Origin: Promethearchaeota archaeon
GTDB lineage: Archaea > Asgardarchaeota > Lokiarchaeia > Sigyniarchaeales > SOKP01
Direction: 5' to 3'
Assembly: GCA_048939995.1 (NCBI GenBank)
Contig: JBHLOY010000006.1
Location: 96,001 to 160,000, forward strand
DNA: 64,000 nt
This document shows positions 17,475 to 33,514 of this stretch, piece by piece. Position 1 is the first letter of the stretch; each line of letters begins with the position of its first letter. The notes below the pieces were generated by a model. The model had not been told where the DNA came from, did not search any database, and saw only the letters and a list, made by a program, of their open reading frames with translations. The position numbers and the translations under genes were made by a program.

Positions 17475-17631
17475 GGCCCTAGACGGTCGGAATTGTTTTG
17501 AGATCATATCGATCTCCAACGATAAGTGGTCTCTGACACTGGGCTTCAAACCCAGTTATCCTGCGAAGGGATAGGAGTTCGATAACGGTTGGAAATTTAC
17601 TAATCTTCGAATATCTCCTCGAGGGCCGCCA
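17475..17631 (+). tRNA. selC: tRNA-Sec (anticodon UCA) with two BHB introns (17492-17525 and 17584-17613)
   Basis: 9-bp acceptor GGCCCTAGA/TCGAGGGCC (1 mismatch), discriminator G plus encoded CCA, 7-bp D stem after splicing, 6-bp anticodon stem ACTGGG-CTTCAAA-CCCAGT, long variable arm, 4-bp T stem (9/4 fold). Immediately upstream of SepSecS. Confidence 0.93.
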
Positions 17632-19809: not shown

Positions 19810-19832
19810 TGTTATTTTTCAATTTAAAAAAA

Positions 19833-20011
19833 TGGGCCATCGGGGATTTGAACCCCGGATTTCCCTTACTCATTGATGGAATCACAATGAGACTCAGGTT
19901 TTTACTAATAACGGACAAATTATTTTGTTGTATGTCCGTTGGTCATTTATAAGACCTGCGCTTTTTGACCAAGCTTTAAAGAGCTTGTTAACCAGTCTGA
20001 GCTAATGGCCC
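19833..20011 (-). tRNA. tRNA-Ile (anticodon UAU) with three introns (19964-19988, 19900-19946, 19861-19892)
   Basis: The spliced product GGGCCATTAGCTCAGACTGGTTAAAGCGCAGGTCTTATAAACCTGAGATCCGGGGTTCAAATCCCCGATGGCCCA (75 nt) folds as a cloverleaf. Each intron is a hairpin flanked by 3-nt bulges. Confidence 0.88.
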
Positions 20012-20190
20012 AAGACAATGATAATTCTATCTAAAGTATTTCTCCATATTTAAAAAAATATTTTTCTTACAAATTCAAAAGTTTCAAAAACATAAAAATT
20101 TTTTTATTGTTGCACTCTGTTATATTTATAATTAAAGCTTTAAAATGAATTTATTTAGAATTTAATTATATATATAAGAGTGAGAAGATT

Positions 20191-22855: not shown

Positions 22856-23998
22856 ATGGAAAAAGAAATTTTAGCTTGTATTGAAAAAAAAAACATAAAA
22901 TACCTTCACTCAGGTCAAATTTCAAAATTTATTTATCCTATGGAGAGACAAGAAGCTCATAAGCGAAAAGTTAGTCACTTGATTATTAGAGTCTTTATAG
23001 TATCTATTTCACCTAAAAATAATGTCTTTTTTCTGGTTCAAAAGAGAAGTAATAAAAAGAAAGAGTTTCCAGAATATTTTACAGATTCTGCTTCAGGGCA
23101 TGTAATATATAAAAAAAATCTAAATATTAATGATATTAAAAATAACGCAAAAAGGGAATTACAAGAAGAATTCGGCATTCCTCCAAAAGCAATTATCCAA
23201 ATTAAATTCTATGATTTAAAAGCTGAAATAAATGAAAAGACTATAGAAATTGCTTACACTTTTTTAGTTTTAGTAGAATATAATATCGAATTAAAACCTA
23301 ATCCAGAGGAACTGGAAATTAGAGACAGTAGGTTTTATAGTAAATCAGAACTGAAACAAATATTAGAAAATGAGAAATATATTGATTATTCAAAGAAAAT
23401 TTGGAAAGAACTTCTTGAATTGGATATTATTAAATACTTCCAACAAAATAATCTCAACAAGAGTCCAGCAAAAAATGAAATTGCTTTCTTTATTGGTAGA
23501 TTTCAACCATTTCATCATGGACATTTATACGTACTTAATCAACTTTTAAAAAGTTATAAGTCCGTCAAAATAGGGATAGGTAGCTCCCAACTCTCTAATA
23601 CTAAGACAGATCCTTTCTCTAGTAAAGAAAGAATCCAATTTATTAGAGCTGCTCTGGAAAAAAGAAATATTAATCAAGCAAAATACAAAATCTATGAAAT
23701 TCCAGATATCTTTAATGCTAAAAAATGGGTTGATCATGTAAAATCTATAGTAGGAGAATTTAATATTATTTTTTCTAATAGCGAATGGGTAAGGCAATTA
23801 TTTAAAGCAAAAGGATATAGATTAGGAAAAAAAATTACAATTTTCAAGAAGAAGTATAATGGCTCTAAAATCAGAAAATTAATCAGTAGAAATAATCAGA
23901 CTTGGAAAAATTTAGTTCCAAAAGAAGTAGCAAATTTAATAGTTCAAAATAATGGTATAGAAAGAATTAAAAATCAATCTGAGGCATCTGAGTCATGA
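22856..23998 (+). CDS. Fusion of N-terminal Nudix (IDI-like) and C-terminal NMN adenylyltransferase
   Basis: LVQKRS...SASGHV...AKRELQEEFGI, then FIGRFQPFHHGH, IGIGSSQ and DPFSSKER. Confidence 0.85.
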   Translation: MEKEILACIEKKNIKYLHSGQISKFIYPMERQEAHKRKVSHLIIRVFIVSISPKNNVFFLVQKRSNKKKEFPEYFTDSASGHVIYKKNLNINDIKNNAKRELQEEFGIPPKAIIQIKFYDLKAEINEKTIEIAYTFLVLVEYNIELKPNPEELEIRDSRFYSKSELKQILENEKYIDYSKKIWKELLELDIIKYFQQNNLNKSPAKNEIAFFIGRFQPFHHGHLYVLNQLLKSYKSVKIGIGSSQLSNTKTDPFSSKERIQFIRAALEKRNINQAKYKIYEIPDIFNAKKWVDHVKSIVGEFNIIFSNSEWVRQLFKAKGYRLGKKITIFKKKYNGSKIRKLISRNNQTWKNLVPKEVANLIVQNNGIERIKNQSEASES

Positions 23999-25062
23999 AT
24001 AAGCGGAAATATTTAGAAATTGACGGGGCATATGGTGAAGGAGGTGGTTCTATTTTACGGCTTGCTGCCGGTTTTTCCGTATTATTCAATCTACCAATAA
24101 AAATATTCAACATTCGAGCTAATCGTCCTAAAAAAGGATTACGCCTTCAACATCTTCTAGGGTTACAAACATTAGCTAATTTAACTGGGAGTCAACTTAA
24201 TGCCCTAGATGGAGAATGTAAAGTCGGCACAGAAGAATTAATTTTTATACCAAATCGGAGCTTTATAAATAAACTTAATATTGAAGTTAACACTGCAGCT
24301 AATATTGGGTTATTACTCCAACCAATCCAGATTTCTAGTCTTGGAATTTCTCAAAATGGTCAGATCGAAATCTTTATTAATGGAGGAGGAACCTTTGGTA
24401 AGTGGGCTCCTAGCTTAAATTACCTAGCAAATGTAACATATCCTATTCTCAAAAAAAGCGGTCTTGAAATACTAGTTGATGTGAAAGAATACGGATTTTA
24501 CCCAAAAGGAGGTGCCTTAACTACATGCACAATAGTTCCTCCCAAATCAAAATTAAAACCAATCAATTTGATAGAACTCGGAAATATTGATTTAATCCAA
24601 GGTGAAATAATAATCTCAAATTTACAAAAAAATATTGGAGAGAGAATTAAAGGTTCAATAAATCAAGAAATACGACATGACTTCCGAGTTGAAACTGATA
24701 TAAAGTACTTTACGGTGAAATCTCTTAGCCCAGGGGTAGGAGTATGTCTCTGGGCACATTCTGATTCAGGTGCAATCATTTCTTCAGGGACTATTCTTGG
24801 TGAGAAAAGTATGAGTTCAGAAAAGTTAGGAAAGATTGCTTCAAGGGAAATTTTAAAATACGTTTACAATCAAATACCCATCGATAATTATCTAAGCGAT
24901 CAATTAATACCACTCATTGCTTTCATTAAAGAACACTCCTCACTTAGAGTACTTGAAATTACAGGACATACTAAGACTAATTTGGAATTAGTAAAACTCT
25001 TTACAAATAGGGATTATGAAATTACGAAAGATAAAAATTCTTTTATAATTGAATATTTTTAA
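23995..25062 (+). CDS. rtcA: RNA 3'-terminal phosphate cyclase
   Basis: IDGAYGEGGGSILR, IRANRPKKGLRLQHL, GFYPKGG, DNYLSDQL, and catalytic His in TGHTKTN. Confidence 0.93.
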   Translation: MNKRKYLEIDGAYGEGGGSILRLAAGFSVLFNLPIKIFNIRANRPKKGLRLQHLLGLQTLANLTGSQLNALDGECKVGTEELIFIPNRSFINKLNIEVNTAANIGLLLQPIQISSLGISQNGQIEIFINGGGTFGKWAPSLNYLANVTYPILKKSGLEILVDVKEYGFYPKGGALTTCTIVPPKSKLKPINLIELGNIDLIQGEIIISNLQKNIGERIKGSINQEIRHDFRVETDIKYFTVKSLSPGVGVCLWAHSDSGAIISSGTILGEKSMSSEKLGKIASREILKYVYNQIPIDNYLSDQLIPLIAFIKEHSSLRVLEITGHTKTNLELVKLFTNRDYEITKDKNSFIIEYF

Positions 25063-28138: not shown

Positions 28139-28207
28139 TAAAATAAGCTTGAAATTCCCTAATAAATATAAATAACGCTTAATTGCGTTATTTAACTTAA
28201 ATTTTTT

Positions 28208-28309
28208 GCAGACATAGCCTAGCCTGGTACGGCGCCAGCTTGGAGAGAATTTCTTACCTAATAAGCTGGTGTGTGAAAGCACTCGAGGGTTCAAATCCCT
28301 CTGTCTGCG
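28208..28309 (+). tRNA. tRNA-Ser (anticodon GGA) with an 18-nt intron (28246-28263) at position 37/38
   Basis: Acceptor GCAGACA/TGTCTGC, discriminator G, anticodon stem CCAGC/GCTGG, long variable arm, T arm GAGGG-TTCAAAT-CCCTC; BHB helix TTGG/CTAA. Confidence 0.92.
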
Positions 28310-28342
28310 TACTTTCTTTTGAGTTATTAACATCTAGGGATC

Positions 28343-29026
28343 TTAAACATCTGGAAACTCCAGAGCTTTTGATTTACCACCACCCATCATCTGTTCAAAG
28401 CCACCGGATGCTTGAGTTTGCAACTTAAAAATTCTTTGGATGATAGTATTCATTCCAAAGCTACAGAGAAAATACCATGCCGTAAAATTAATCCATCCGT
28501 GGTATGGTTGAATAATTTTATACATATTATAAAATGCCAATGTCCAATCTGGAGCTGGTGGTCCCCCAGTAAATGCTGCTATTATTCCTCCAATAAATGG
28601 TATATCATTTGCATTCATAGGAGATAATGCGACTGGTATAGGTATATTGTCTGGTCTAAACACAAAGTTTACAATCGTAAATATTATTATCATTGGTAAA
28701 AAAGTGATACATGTGGGCTTTATACGCTGGAGTGACATTCTCTGCTGAGTCTGTTTAAACATACTGTCTTTACGTTCCCATCTTTTGCGAAGCTTTCTAT
28801 ATCGTTCAACATCCGTTTCTGCTAATTCTATAATCTTAGATTTTTCTTCATTATGAGCCTTTAAAGCTTTCTGTTTCCTATTCATCTCATCAATATCAGT
28901 TAGCCATTTTGTCAATCCTGTGCTTAACAATGCTGTTGCTGTAGCTAACAGTAAAACAAAAAACATTGCACCAGGGGGATAACTAAACCACCCTAGAGGG
29001 TAATCTTGAAAAATTATTAGTAACAT
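28343..29026 (-). CDS. DUF106/EMC3/TMCO1 family (Oxa1 superfamily) membrane protein
   Basis: TM, coiled coil, KPTCITFLPMIIIF...WYFLCSF; lies downstream of secY. Confidence 0.88.
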   Translation of the reverse strand: MLLIIFQDYPLGWFSYPPGAMFFVLLLATATALLSTGLTKWLTDIDEMNRKQKALKAHNEEKSKIIELAETDVERYRKLRKRWERKDSMFKQTQQRMSLQRIKPTCITFLPMIIIFTIVNFVFRPDNIPIPVALSPMNANDIPFIGGIIAAFTGGPPAPDWTLAFYNMYKIIQPYHGWINFTAWYFLCSFGMNTIIQRIFKLQTQASGGFEQMMGGGKSKALEFPDV

Positions 29027-29123
29027 AGATAGTGTACAATATATTCAGTCTTATTTTAAATTTTTTAGTGATTCGATCATCTTCAAAATTGACCGAAATT
29101 AAGAGGAAAAGAAATAGCGGTAC

Positions 29124-30578
29124 CTAATCCAGCCCAAGGAAGCTTCGCATGCCAGGGTATTGGCTTGCAGCCACCTCCTTCGCGATTGTTTCTGAATATT
29201 GGTGAACGATGCCGATAGCGATTAAGAGTCCCGTACCTGAAGTCAGTGCTCCTAATGAATCGGCGAAAAAGCTCATGCCTGCGATGATGATTCCGTTGAT
29301 AATAACTAAAGTGGGAATGTATCTCTTCAAAATTCTTTCAATTATACGCTCTGAACTTCTAAATCCTGGAACACTCATGCCAGAATCGAGAATTTGTTGG
29401 GCGATATCGCGTGGTGCTAATCCTGAAACTTCAACCCATAGACGGCCGAGCATTACACAGAGGAAAATGAATATCACTAAATATATGACGGCTCTTAAGG
29501 GATCTTGGAGCAGTGCGTCAATTCCTTGGGGCGGTGAGAGATAATATAATAATCCCCCTGTCGGAAGTAAATATTGTCCTTGCTGGATACCTTCCGTACG
29601 TGGTTCAAATACTCCAATGAGATTTAGCCAAAATTGAGTATCTGCATTCCGCAAAGCGGAATCAGGACCCGCAATTAATTGCCCAAAGAATAATAAATTT
29701 GCATATAAAGCATTCACTAATATTACGGGAATATTAGATACATATAGCAACTTCATTGGATATTTTCCTCTAAAACCCCTATATCCTCTATATGTCAGAG
29801 GTATTTCCACTCTAGTCGATTCAAGCCAAATAACAATAACAAAAATAATTAATGTAGTAATCCCCCCTAAAATTGAAGGTAATTGCCCTCTTTGAAAAAG
29901 TGAGGCAGTATCTAAATCAGGATTGGTAAATGATTCAAAAAACGCAACGACAATACCTCTTGCTCCTTCTGGAGTGTTTAAACCATAAAAACTGAAGCAA
30001 TTTACAAATATTTGTCCTGCCACTCCAGCTGCTATGAATAAAGAGACTCCACTTCCCAGACCCCATCCTTTTTGCAATAATTCATCTAAGAGTATTATGA
30101 TAATTCCGGCGAATAATAGCTGTAGAAGAATAAATGTCTGTGTTGCAATACCTAAACCAGGACCAAAAGCTCCCCCTATAATATATGCAACAGCATTAAA
30201 TATGGTTAAAAACATAGCCATTACTTTTTGGGAACCGCTAAACATAGCTCTATCATAAGGATCACTCATATCCACTTTAATTATTTTTGAACCGAGTAAT
30301 AACTGCATTACTAAACCAGCAGTAACTATGGGACCAATTCCTAGTTCTGTTAACGTTCCTCTTTGACTTGCTAAAATTACTCTTAACCAATAATAGTAAT
30401 CGGTTGTTTCTGAGAGATTTACACCATATATTGGAATACTAGATAAAATGATATAAATGATTAAAACTATAGCAGTCCAAATGAGTTTTTCTTTGAAACT
30501 TACTTCTCTTTGGGGTTGTTTTAACTCCGGCATTATCCGTACAAATGGAGAAAAAAACTTTAGAAATTTACCTCCCAT
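29124..30578 (-). CDS. secY: Preprotein translocase SecY/Sec61-alpha
   Basis: GTLTELGIGPIVTAG, GWGLGSGVSLFIA, YPMKLLYVSNIPVIL and SGTGLL motifs. Confidence 0.97.
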   Translation of the reverse strand: MGGKFLKFFSPFVRIMPELKQPQREVSFKEKLIWTAIVLIIYIILSSIPIYGVNLSETTDYYYWLRVILASQRGTLTELGIGPIVTAGLVMQLLLGSKIIKVDMSDPYDRAMFSGSQKVMAMFLTIFNAVAYIIGGAFGPGLGIATQTFILLQLLFAGIIIILLDELLQKGWGLGSGVSLFIAAGVAGQIFVNCFSFYGLNTPEGARGIVVAFFESFTNPDLDTASLFQRGQLPSILGGITTLIIFVIVIWLESTRVEIPLTYRGYRGFRGKYPMKLLYVSNIPVILVNALYANLLFFGQLIAGPDSALRNADTQFWLNLIGVFEPRTEGIQQGQYLLPTGGLLYYLSPPQGIDALLQDPLRAVIYLVIFIFLCVMLGRLWVEVSGLAPRDIAQQILDSGMSVPGFRSSERIIERILKRYIPTLVIINGIIIAGMSFFADSLGALTSGTGLLIAIGIVHQYSETIAKEVAASQYPGMRSFLGLD

Positions 30579-30767: not shown

Positions 30768-31055
30768 TCAGAAGAGCGAACCAATTCCAGTAGGTTCTTC
30801 TTCCTCTTCTTCCTCTTTCTTCTTTTCTTCTTTCTTTTCTACTTTAGGTGCTGCACTTGGGGCCGCTATAACAGGAGCAGAGCCTGTGGATTTAATTATA
30901 TCCTCAATTTTGACCTCTTTTAAACCTGCTATAAGTTTAGTCAGTTCTGTCTTATCGACTTTAGTACCTGCAGCCTCCAAAACCTTCTCTAAGTTTGCTT
31001 CTGTAATCTTTTTATTGGCTTTATGTAGCAGTAAAGCAGCGTAAATAGATTCCAT
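30768..31055 (-). CDS. rpl12: Ribosomal stalk protein P1 (aL12)
   Basis: MESIYAALLLH and acidic tail EEEEEEPTGIGSLF. Confidence 0.95.
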   Translation of the reverse strand: MESIYAALLLHKANKKITEANLEKVLEAAGTKVDKTELTKLIAGLKEVKIEDIIKSTGSAPVIAAPSAAPKVEKKEEKKKEEEEEEEPTGIGSLF

Positions 31056-31119: not shown

Positions 31120-32013
31120 TCAGCCAAACAAACCTCCTATCCCAACTTCTTCCTCTTCTTCTTCTTCCTTTTCAGGTTTTTTTACTTCAGCTTTAGGTTC
31201 TTCTTTAGGAGCTACTTGTATTCCTTCTCCAAATATAATTGCATTTAGCAAATTAGCATTCGCAACCGCTTTTTGGATATAGTATTTTGTCATATCTTCA
31301 AATAAAACGGGGATTTCAAAGAGGATTCCAAGAGCCTCTCTATAAGCTTTTGATAAATCTTGTTTAAACTGATCTACATTCATATATAGAATATCTTCTG
31401 GTATTATCTCACCATCACTCCACGCAGAATGTATTTTGATTAAAGATTCAATAGGTTTAATCCCCAATTTTTTTAAAACTGCTGCCTGTTTAACATCAAC
31501 AACATCTCCTGCTTTATGCGTTCTGGTATCTTCTCTTATCCAAATCGTATCATTTTGTATTCTAGTTGGCAGTTTTAGAGTCATATTTAATTCTGATATA
31601 ACTTGACCAGTAGGTAATCCTGTATCTCCTGCTGGAACCCAAATATCTACTGGAGTTACTTCATCTGGTTTAGCTGGAACCATCCATTCATTTTCATTAA
31701 AAACCTTCTTTAACTCAAAAATATCCATATTTGTGAAGCATAAGGCTGATTGTCCTGGAATATTTTCTGCAAATATCTCTAAGTTTAGCTTTTTTGACTC
31801 CTTTTTGTATTCCTCTATCGCTCTTAACTGTAGATTTTTTTTAGACATTCTAATAACAGCTTTTCCTCTTAGAAGTTTTCGGGTTTCTTGAATTTGTCTA
31901 TCGTTTAAATTAGCAACTTCAATTACAGCGATATTCTTATTATTCTTAAACAAATCTATTAAGCTACTAACTTCATTTTTCTTCCATTGTGGAATGGTTT
32001 TTTTTCCAATCAA
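31120..32013 (-). CDS. rpl10: 50S ribosomal protein uL10 (P0)
   Basis: IPQWKKNEV, PAGDTGLPTG, LKKLGIKP and tail EEEVGIGGLFG. Confidence 0.95.
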   Translation of the reverse strand: MIGKKTIPQWKKNEVSSLIDLFKNNKNIAVIEVANLNDRQIQETRKLLRGKAVIRMSKKNLQLRAIEEYKKESKKLNLEIFAENIPGQSALCFTNMDIFELKKVFNENEWMVPAKPDEVTPVDIWVPAGDTGLPTGQVISELNMTLKLPTRIQNDTIWIREDTRTHKAGDVVDVKQAAVLKKLGIKPIESLIKIHSAWSDGEIIPEDILYMNVDQFKQDLSKAYREALGILFEIPVLFEDMTKYYIQKAVANANLLNAIIFGEGIQVAPKEEPKAEVKKPEKEEEEEEEVGIGGLFG

Positions 32014-32017
32014 TCTG

Positions 32018-32746
32018 TTACACCTCTATTGATTTTAAATATTGTTCATCAATTTTAATAGGATGCCCCATAGTAGTTTTCAGATACATAGATTTAATAT
32101 TATTATACTTATGGGGCATTTGCTCAGCAATATAATCAACTACAGCTTTCAAATTTTCAAAAACATGTTCTTTTTCCATCGACTTTTTTCCAATTTTGAC
32201 TTGTATTTGAGGTTGTTTTTTTAATTGAATTCGAATAGCTTTTAAATATCGCTCTATAGCAACTTTTAAATCATCTGGATTAGAAATTATTCCATATCCA
32301 CTAGGGAAAGGTTTTGGCATTTTACCAACTGGGCCTAAAAATCGAGCAAGATATCGAGCCAAGTTTGGCATCATTTTATCTTCTACGACAAAAAAATCGT
32401 ATTTTTTAACAAATTTCTTTTTATATTTTTTTTCTTCGTTATTCAATTTAATTAAACCCTCTTCATCCAGAGTATCTAAACCTAATTTCTTTGCTTCTAA
32501 GAGAATGTCATCTGAAGCGACAACACATATATTTGGATTTTCGGAGATAATAACATTGTTAGGTAAGAGGACTTCTTTATCAATTCTCTGTTTTGGGTCA
32601 TTCAAATTTAGATCTTTAAGATTAATGATAAAATCTATGCTTTCATCAAAATTTCTAACCTTGTCCTTAAAACCTTTTTTTTGTTTCACTGAAAATTTAA
32701 TTGCTGCATTTAATGATTTTCTTAACATTTTATCGTCTAATTTCAT
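32018..32746 (-). CDS. rpl1: 50S ribosomal protein uL1
   Basis: RNFDESIDFIINLKD, LGPVGKMP and YLKTTMG motifs. Confidence 0.95.
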   Translation of the reverse strand: MKLDDKMLRKSLNAAIKFSVKQKKGFKDKVRNFDESIDFIINLKDLNLNDPKQRIDKEVLLPNNVIISENPNICVVASDDILLEAKKLGLDTLDEEGLIKLNNEEKKYKKKFVKKYDFFVVEDKMMPNLARYLARFLGPVGKMPKPFPSGYGIISNPDDLKVAIERYLKAIRIQLKKQPQIQVKIGKKSMEKEHVFENLKAVVDYIAEQMPHKYNNIKSMYLKTTMGHPIKIDEQYLKSIEV

Positions 32747-32749
32747 TTA

Positions 32750-33284
32750 TTAAATCTCACCTTTTATTTGATCATCAAAATCCCCATTATCAATTTTTTT
32801 CTGAATTTCTCGTGGATCCTTTCCTTCAACAGTAGCCCCTATCGATAGCACTGTACCTAATACTGTTTTTAAGGAATTTTTAAACGTTTTATCTAAGAAT
32901 CTTTCTTTTTTAGCAATCGCAACAGCAATTACTTGTTCCAATGTTAAATTACCAATCTTTGTTTCTGAAGCTGAAGCACTTCCTTTCTCAACACCCAATT
33001 CTTTCAGAAGAAGGGATGCAGTACTTGGAGTTTCAACAAAAATTTCAAATTGCTTAGTTTCGGGATCACATTCAATCCTAACTGGAACTGTTAATCCCTT
33101 AAAGATCATAGTTTTCTCATTGACAGCATCGACTACATCTTTAATGTTTATACCTGTTGGGCCTACGGCTGGACCTATAGGTGGCCCTCCTGACGCATTC
33201 GGGGTTTATTCTAAATGAATATTAAATTATAACTCTCCCACCAGTCACAAGAGCCTTTACAATTAATTTTCCTTTAGTACTCAT
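32750..33284 (-). CDS. rpl11: 50S ribosomal protein uL11, two exons (33284-33235 and 33197-32750) joined across a 37-nt BHB intron; 165 aa
   Basis: Exon 1 MSTKGKLIVKALVTGG and exon 2 ASGGPPIGPAVGPTGINIKDVVDAVNEKTMIFKGLTVPVRI are in different frames. The splice joins AG|T to give GG-S-ASGGPP. GGTGA ribosome-binding site at 33291-33295. Confidence 0.9.
33198..33234 (-). other. Bulge-helix-bulge intron in the uL11 mRNA
   Basis: Minus strand reads TGGG-AG^A-GTT...AAC-CCCG-AA^T: 4-bp helix UGGG/CCCG, 3-nt bulges AGA and AAU, intron stem GUU/AAC. The intron contains an in-frame TAA. Confidence 0.85.
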
Positions 33285-33514
33285 GCAATTTCACCGTTTT
33301 GCTTGATTATTTAGTAAAAAAATATACTTAAAAGGTCAAGAACGTAAAATTAAATTCGTTGTCAATTTTTATTCCAATATGTTTTATATCGAAACCGCTT
33401 TAATTTGCGTCCTAAGTCTTTTAAAAGTATATTTTGAACTTAGTATGAGAAAAAATGTATAAAAATTAATAAGTTTTATTATAATGTCTAAAGGGTCGAA
33501 TAGAAATTTATAGG

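What the first reader, a model, noticed from the sequence alone, without database searches (positions are those of the whole stretch)
32750..33284. Ribosomal protein uL11 gene split by a tRNA-type (BHB) intron: candidate mRNA splicing in an Asgard archaeon
Seen in sequence: the ORF track finds only a 119-aa uL11 that lacks the conserved N-terminus. The missing part is present upstream but broken. ATG at 33284, with a GGTGA ribosome-binding site, reads MSTKGKLIVKALVTGG-RVII-stop, while ASGGPPIGPAVGP continues in another frame. The AT-rich insert is bounded by UGGG-AGA-GUU...AAC-CCCG-AAU, a 4-bp helix with two 3-nt bulges. Cutting after the second base of each bulge, the archaeal splicing endonuclease rule, removes 37 nt (33198-33234) and yields 498 nt, an intact 165-aa L11 (VTGG-S-ASGGPP). 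The outer exon-exon helix is imperfect, so the BHB is a relaxed one. Established: BHB introns are typical of archaeal tRNA and rRNA; in mRNA they are best known from crenarchaeal cbf5. Inference: this is EndA/RtcB-dependent splicing of a core translation mRNA in the lineage closest to eukaryotes. Because it sits in the first gene of the L11-L1-L10-P1 operon, it could tie stalk synthesis to splicing capacity. I cannot confirm from here whether it has been described.
Basis: partly seen in the sequence, partly recalled or inferred. Interest (0 to 1): 0.92.

Follow-up and report, generated by a model that had tools for sequence, protein, structure and literature searches.

The report
tRNA-type introns in Asgard ribosomal gene
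The only gene for ribosomal protein L11 in this Asgard archaeon is broken by a 37-base insert shaped like a tRNA intron, and its relatives carry such inserts at four different spots in the same gene, so these microbes very probably splice protein-coding messages with their tRNA-splicing enzymes, which the papers I could search confirm inside a coding sequence for only one archaeal gene.

Summary
Observation confirmed. The single rpl11 of this Promethearchaeota (Lokiarchaeia-type) genome has a 37-nt insert (33198-33234) with a stop and a frameshift. Cutting by the bulge-helix-bulge (BHB) rule restores 165 aa and the Ser found in intronless kin. A second assembly carries the identical insert. 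Among 93 related genes, 37 carry 48 such inserts (28-38 nt) at four sites (CDS nt 50, 71, 83, 100), up to three per gene; all break the protein. At our site the central helix pairs in 68/68 cells with compensatory changes. A broad-specificity-type two-subunit EndA and RtcB are present. EF-1alpha, MetRS, purA and dnaG of this genome are broken the same way. New here: intron states differ between sister genomes because the 5' block of rpl11 is swapped by recombination, and most introns share a C(RNNUM)G pentaloop. A regulatory role is not supported. Splicing itself is inferred: no RNA data were available. This scan has noted Asgard BHB mRNA introns, including in rpl11, on other DNA before. I found no paper reporting them.

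The parts
33291..33295 (-). GGTGA ribosome-binding site of rpl11
   Evidence: sequence
33235..33284 (-). rpl11 exon 1 (50 nt, codons 1-16 plus AG of Ser17)
   Evidence: codons 10-16 differ only synonymously among the 17 genes with this intron (264 synonymous, 0 non-synonymous pairwise)
33237..33240 (-). 5' strand of the central 4-bp helix (UGGG), followed by bulge AG|A at 33236-33234
33198..33234 (-). 37-nt BHB (HBh') intron, 78% A+U, in-frame UAA at 33224-33222, shifts the frame by +1
33207..33221 (-). apical hairpin of the intron, UAUUC-AUUUA-GAAUA, with the shared C(RNNUM)G pentaloop
33200..33203 (-). 3' strand of the central helix (CCCG), preceded by inner helix AAC (33206-33204) and followed by bulge AA|U at 33199-33197
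32750..33197 (-). rpl11 exon 2 (448 nt to the stop); holds the empty sites used by relatives (spliced CDS nt 71, 83, 100)
   Evidence: NCBIfam PRK01143 above cut-off
32018..32746 (-). rpl1 (uL1), with its own GGTGA at 32761-32757
31120..32013 (-). rpl10 (uL10/P0)
30768..31055 (-). P1 stalk protein

Best explanation
The insert is a true mRNA intron of the archaeal BHB class. The rpl11 pre-mRNA folds a relaxed HBh' motif; the two-subunit splicing endonuclease EndA cuts after the second base of each bulge; RtcB joins the exons, restoring the Ser17 codon and a 165-aa uL11. The intron is a tolerated, near-neutral passenger, one of several in this genome's core genes. rpl11 is a hot spot with four sites in 50 nt, and intron-bearing and intron-free versions of its 5' block are exchanged between species by recombination. 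Shown: structure, covariation, exon conservation, enzymes, mosaic 5' block. Inferred: the cutting and joining in the cell, and neutrality.
For: Sole copy, exact restoration of Ser. 48 inserts at 4 fixed sites in 37 of 93 genes; lengths 28-38 nt in all three phases; all 12 whose length is a multiple of three contain a stop. Central helix paired 68/68, 51/56, 16/16 and 52/52 cells at the four sites, far above slid controls; changes on both sides at site 50 (U-A vs A-U in the central and the inner helix). At site 100 the BHB register turns apparent Tyr/Asp into the invariant Asn. Motif-free census of 28 neighbouring gene families: 24 of 27 frame-breaking rpl11 inserts have a full helix, against about 16 of 90 in-frame coding inserts given their best of many registers (counted by eye). 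EndA alpha keeps the Tyr-His-Lys triad and the Lys-bearing loop aligned to the Aeropyrum pernix enzyme; second subunit and RtcB present; that loop confers cleavage of relaxed BHB motifs (PMC6379350). EF-1alpha has a BHB insert in its P-loop in 5 of 29 genus members. Mosaic 5' block.
Against: No transcript, circular intron or peptide was seen. The outer helix starts with G.G in all 17 genes at this site, and 5 of 14 site-71 introns have a broken central pair. The folding z-score of our copy alone is modest (-2.2). The sampled genes are related, so counts are not independent events (four sites are).
Confidence: 0.9

Rival explanations
1. The intron is spliced and is kept as a regulatory switch that ties stalk-operon output to splicing capacity or stress.
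For: First gene of the L11-L1-L10-P1 operon; frame-breaking inserts in 28 neighbouring gene families fall almost only in rpl11; EF-1alpha and MetRS are also hit.
Against: 56 of 93 relatives lack any intron, matching independence (53 expected); sister genomes differ; four interchangeable sites; rpl1 has its own ribosome-binding site.
Confidence: 0.12
2. No splicing: uL11 is made in a truncated form from an internal start (119 or 142 aa) and the upstream piece is a remnant.
For: Gene callers report such ORFs; uL11 is dispensable in some bacteria (own knowledge).
Against: Exon 1 codons 10-16 show only synonymous differences across 17 carriers; the ribosome-binding site lies before exon 1; genes with two or three inserts keep every micro-exon intact; helix covariation would have no cause.
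Confidence: 0.03
3. The ribosome bypasses or frameshifts over the insert (T4 gene 60-like hopping).
For: A hairpin and a stop follow the take-off region.
Against: No matched take-off and landing codons; insert lengths cover all three phases at four sites; boundaries follow BHB geometry each time.
Confidence: 0.03
4. Assembly error or decaying pseudogene.
Against: Identical insert in a second assembly, homologous inserts in 16 other genes, no second copy, rest of the gene intact.
Confidence: 0.01

Closest known systems
cbf5 pre-mRNA intron of Desulfurococcales and Sulfolobales (Watanabe 2002; Yoshinari 2006; Yokobori 2009, PMC2738675)
   Same: Short BHB intron inside a coding sequence, host with a two-subunit EndA, lineage-specific absence.
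   Different: cbf5: one gene, inherited from a common ancestor with about two losses (abstract). Here: Asgard lineage, a ribosomal protein, four positions, up to three introns per gene, 10-13 state changes per common site on a 90-gene tree, several other core genes hit, and exchange between species.
BHB intron in the 5' UTR of Haloferax HVO_1309 (PMC7714728)
   Same: EndA-processed mRNA.
   Different: Non-coding position, so it does not break a frame. That 2020 paper names cbf5 as the only other mRNA case.
Multiple non-canonical tRNA introns of Asgard archaea (PMC11291895; bioRxiv 10.64898/2026.10.13.758758) and Thermoproteales
   Same: Short BHB or relaxed-BHB introns, several per gene, repeated gains, two-paralogue EndA.
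   Different: These papers treat tRNA genes only; the preprint does not contain the word mRNA. The pentaloop motif of the rpl11 introns was not found near tRNA 3' ends of this genome (0 of 25).
Spliceosomal and group I/II introns
   Same: Interrupt coding sequence and must be removed.
   Different: Too short for a ribozyme, no GU-AG ends, no Rfam match at gathering level; different chemistry, so not an ancestor of spliceosomal introns.

Membership tests
Archaeal BHB (EndA/RtcB) intron | 4-bp central helix followed by 3-nt bulges on opposite strands, cut after the second bulge base | tested here: met
   UGGG/CCCG with AGA and AAU; 68/68 cells paired across 17 genes; slid controls give a full helix in 0-1 of 17
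Archaeal BHB (EndA/RtcB) intron | At least one flanking helix (h or h'; relaxed forms allowed) | tested here: met
   Inner pair 1 paired 17/17, pair 2 16/17; outer pair 1 is G.G in all 17, so HBh'
Archaeal BHB (EndA/RtcB) intron | Removal at the predicted cuts restores the functional RNA | tested here: met
   165-aa uL11 with the conserved residue at all four sites
Archaeal BHB (EndA/RtcB) intron | Host has an EndA able to cut relaxed motifs, and RtcB | tested here: met
   Two EndA genes above the TIGR00324 cut-off; alpha aligns with the A. pernix catalytic subunit including triad and specific loop; RtcB full length. Activity inferred from sequence.
Archaeal BHB (EndA/RtcB) intron | Spliced RNA or circular intron seen in vivo, or cleavage in vitro | not testable with these tools
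Strict canonical hBHBh' intron | Both outer and inner helices stacked directly on the bulges | tested here: not met
   G.G at the first outer pair
Group I / group II self-splicing intron | Catalytic core of more than 200 nt | tested here: not met
   37 nt; no Rfam match near gathering score
Programmed translational bypassing | Matched take-off and landing codons at a fixed gap | tested here: not met
   No matched pair; gap length and phase vary among orthologues

The most novel reading that the evidence does not exclude
A family of Lokiarchaeia runs a general, enzyme-based mRNA splicing layer: a related set of mini-introns with a common C(RNNUM)G pentaloop is actively colonising core translation genes (rpl11, EF-1alpha, MetRS) by inserting into anticodon-arm-like mRNA hairpins, and spreads between species on short recombining cassettes. 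That would make gain and spread of coding-sequence introns directly observable in a prokaryote close to eukaryotes.
Probability: 0.4. Interest if true: 0.92.

Novelty: new variant of a known kind. Interest (0 to 1): 0.8.

Why it matters
Archaeal protein genes are treated as intron-free except cbf5. Here a ribosomal protein, EF-1alpha, MetRS, purA and primase appear to need splicing in an Asgard lineage. First, this shows that a prokaryote with coupled transcription and translation can tolerate several coding introns, which bears on why and when introns and the nucleus arose, although the chemistry is not spliceosomal. Second, gene callers truncate these core and marker genes, which affects Asgard annotation and phylogenomics. 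Third, sister genomes that differ in intron state give a direct handle on how BHB introns arrive, named as the open problem in the 2026 Asgard tRNA preprint.

Tried and rejected
No RNA holder listed for the locus. Laying reads failed: the first call was stopped by a filter on a stretch outside the gene, and the retry beside it, which that message suggested, met the cap; so there is no read-level evidence. No full-length protein identical to any spliced product was among the 120 listed homologues. Three close intronless contigs and two contigs with the spliced-type junction are other, probably genomic, alleles and not cDNA of a carrier. A de novo genome-wide BHB plus frame-joining scan did not beat its mirror-geometry control at most settings (best 60 vs 32), so I give no genome-wide count and accept only cases that restore a known motif; candidate C21:21570 was rejected after paralogue alignment. 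Introns at different rpl11 sites show little overall sequence similarity, so direct copying between sites is not shown. Rfam: nothing. The promoter scan is for bacterial promoters and was uninformative. An L1-binding autoregulatory site at the intron was considered from memory and not tested. Nine literature searches found no report of Asgard coding-sequence BHB introns; the library lacks most subscription papers.

Full report
Observation. The minus strand reads MSTKGKLIVKALVTGG from ATG 33284, runs into a stop after 20 codons, and resumes as ASGGPPIGPAVGP in another frame. Removing 33198-33234 gives 165 aa. The downstream part passes the NCBIfam cut-off for archaeal L11 and is followed by L1, L10 and P1. 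There is no second copy in the 98%-complete genome. Named relatives are Promethearchaeota/Lokiarchaeota MAGs. A separate assembly, GCA_048938825.1, matches 532 of 535 bases and has the same insert, so an assembly error is excluded without reads.

Structure. The junction forms UGGG/CCCG with bulges AGA and AAU and an inner helix GUU/AAC. The first outer pair is G.G, then a further exon-exon stem follows, so this is a relaxed HBh' motif. On its own the fold is only modestly better than shuffles (z = -2.2). The register is informative: among the 37-nt deletions that reopen the frame, only the BHB cut gives Ser, and its neighbours give Asn or Arg. Ser is the commonest residue in genes without this intron (52 of 76) and appears in 16 of 17 carriers after splicing.

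Comparative evidence. Aligning 93 distinct full genes to an intronless one, without using the motif, finds 56 with no insert, 27 with one, 9 with two and 1 with three. The 48 inserts are 28-38 nt, 72% A+T, and fall at four sites: after CDS nt 50 (17 genes, ours included), 71 (14), 83 (4) and 100 (13). Thirty-six shift the frame and the other 12 all contain a stop. Central-helix cells paired are 68/68, 51/56, 16/16 and 52/52; sliding the partner or the register leaves 0-2 genes with a full helix. At site 50 the first helix pair is U-A, A-U or U-G, and the inner helix is GUU/AAC or GAA/UUC. At site 100 the BHB register converts what looked like Tyr or Asp into the invariant Asn. Codons 10-16 of exon 1 differ only synonymously among carriers. 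These genes are kin, so the independent units are the four sites, not the 48 inserts. In a draw of 300 phylum genomes, split matches appeared only within the host family among the 150 matches listed.

Enzymes. The genome has two EndA genes and a full RtcB. The alpha subunit is closest to the Aeropyrum pernix catalytic subunit and keeps the Tyr, His and Lys triad and the Lys-bearing specific loop. That loop lets the enzyme cut relaxed motifs (PMC6379350). Activity is inferred from sequence.

Not an isolated case. Inserts of the same shape interrupt the single EF-1alpha (33 nt, in GHIDHG|KST), MetRS (32 nt, just before the HIGH motif), purA (30 nt, WG|DEGKGK), dnaG (34 nt), a MoxR-like ATPase, a PurM-like protein and a CoA-transferase. 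The EF-1alpha insert recurs in 5 of 29 genus members, with different inner helices. The purA, dnaG, MoxR and PurM leads came from earlier notes of this scan and I checked them in sequence. My genome-wide scan did not separate from its control, so I give no total.

Why rpl11. Across 28 gene families in about 80 loci, frame-breaking short inserts lie almost only in rpl11, with one in adenylate kinase. One likely reason (inference): the repeated Gly-Pro-x-x-Gly-Pro motif encodes GGNCC-N7-GGNCC, a 5-bp stem with a 7-nt loop like an anticodon arm, and sites 71 and 83 lie after the sixth loop base, the equivalent of tRNA position 37/38. The full stem is present in 12 of 14 and 4 of 4 carriers against 43 of 79 and 16 of 89 non-carriers; this cannot tell cause from later adaptation. 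Sites 50 and 100 have weaker outer stems.

How the introns move. On a tree built without the intron region, the sites need 13, 13, 3 and 10 changes for 17, 14, 4 and 13 carriers. Close pairs that differ in state are 22.5% apart in nt 31-114 but 5.6% apart in the rest of the gene; pairs with the same state are 9% and 6%. L028 is 2% from L023 and L024 in this block and has near-identical introns, yet is 24-25% from them downstream; in L020 versus L039 the divergence is confined to about -200..+120. So intron-bearing and intron-free alleles travel between species as a short recombined block, rather than appearing or vanishing by precise local events. How an intron first enters a site remains unknown. 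Separately, 28 of 48 rpl11 introns, at all four sites, cap their hairpin with C(RNNUM)G (0.2 expected in shuffles; 0.5% of comparable genomic pentaloop hairpins), as do the dnaG and EF-1alpha introns. I defined this motif after seeing these sequences, and five other introns of the genome lack it, so it is a lead: common ancestry or a protein-binding loop.

Rivals. Regulation is unlikely to be the reason the intron is kept: intron-free genes are as common as independence predicts (56 vs 53) and rpl1 has its own ribosome-binding site. Truncated protein, ribosomal bypassing and pseudogene do not explain the conserved micro-exons, the variable phases or the covariation.

Known and new. BHB introns in mRNA are published for cbf5 (PMC2738675) and for one Haloferax 5' UTR, whose authors call cbf5 the only other case (PMC7714728). 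Asgard tRNA genes are known to be heavily interrupted (PMC11291895; bioRxiv 10.64898/2026.10.13.758758), with no treatment of coding genes in what I read. This finding meets every testable feature of the BHB class, so it is a member by structure; it differs in host, target gene, multiplicity and mobility. This scan has already noted the same phenomenon in other Asgard genomes, including a two-intron rpl11; those notes are not independent proof. Verdict: real, very probably spliced, new variant of a known kind, interest 0.8, limited by the lack of RNA evidence.

Noticed in passing
G000 C11:167313-167345 (-), locus L120: 33-nt BHB insert with a stop in the P-loop of the single EF-1alpha; also in 4 more of 29 genus members.
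   Followed up: yes
G000 C6:82172-82203 (+), locus L121: 32-nt BHB-shaped insert just before the HIGH motif of the single MetRS; identity read from motifs, relatives not checked.
   Followed up: partly
G000 C7:109897-109926 (-); C11:~487217-487250 (-); C7:20329 (+); C23:175447 (-); C38:64707 (+); C7:27864 (+): BHB-shaped 29-34 nt inserts in purA, dnaG, a MoxR-like ATPase, a PurM-like gene, a CoA-transferase and an unidentified gene.
   Followed up: partly
L056, adenylate kinase gene, CDS nt 58: 30-nt frame-blocking insert with a clean HBh' motif in one relative.
   Followed up: no
window 33330-33445 (-): A stretch upstream of rpl11 is conserved between otherwise divergent relatives and includes a small hairpin; probably the promoter and a leader element of the stalk operon.
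   Followed up: no
window 17475-17590 (+), 19830-20012 (-), 28207-28310 (+): tRNA-like genes that appear interrupted, one seemingly several times; ARAGORN finds only 24 tRNA genes in the whole genome, probably for this reason.
   Followed up: partly
window 23995-25062 (+): RNA 3'-phosphate cyclase (RtcA)-like ORF by its N-terminal motif; a common neighbour in relatives with or without introns.
   Followed up: no
L002 vs L007/L039; L003 vs L008/L009: Intron-free sister genes also differ strongly in the 5' block, so the block is a recombination hot spot apart from introns.
   Followed up: partly
window 28343-30578 (-): secY and a DUF106-like membrane gene follow the stalk operon directly.
   Followed up: no
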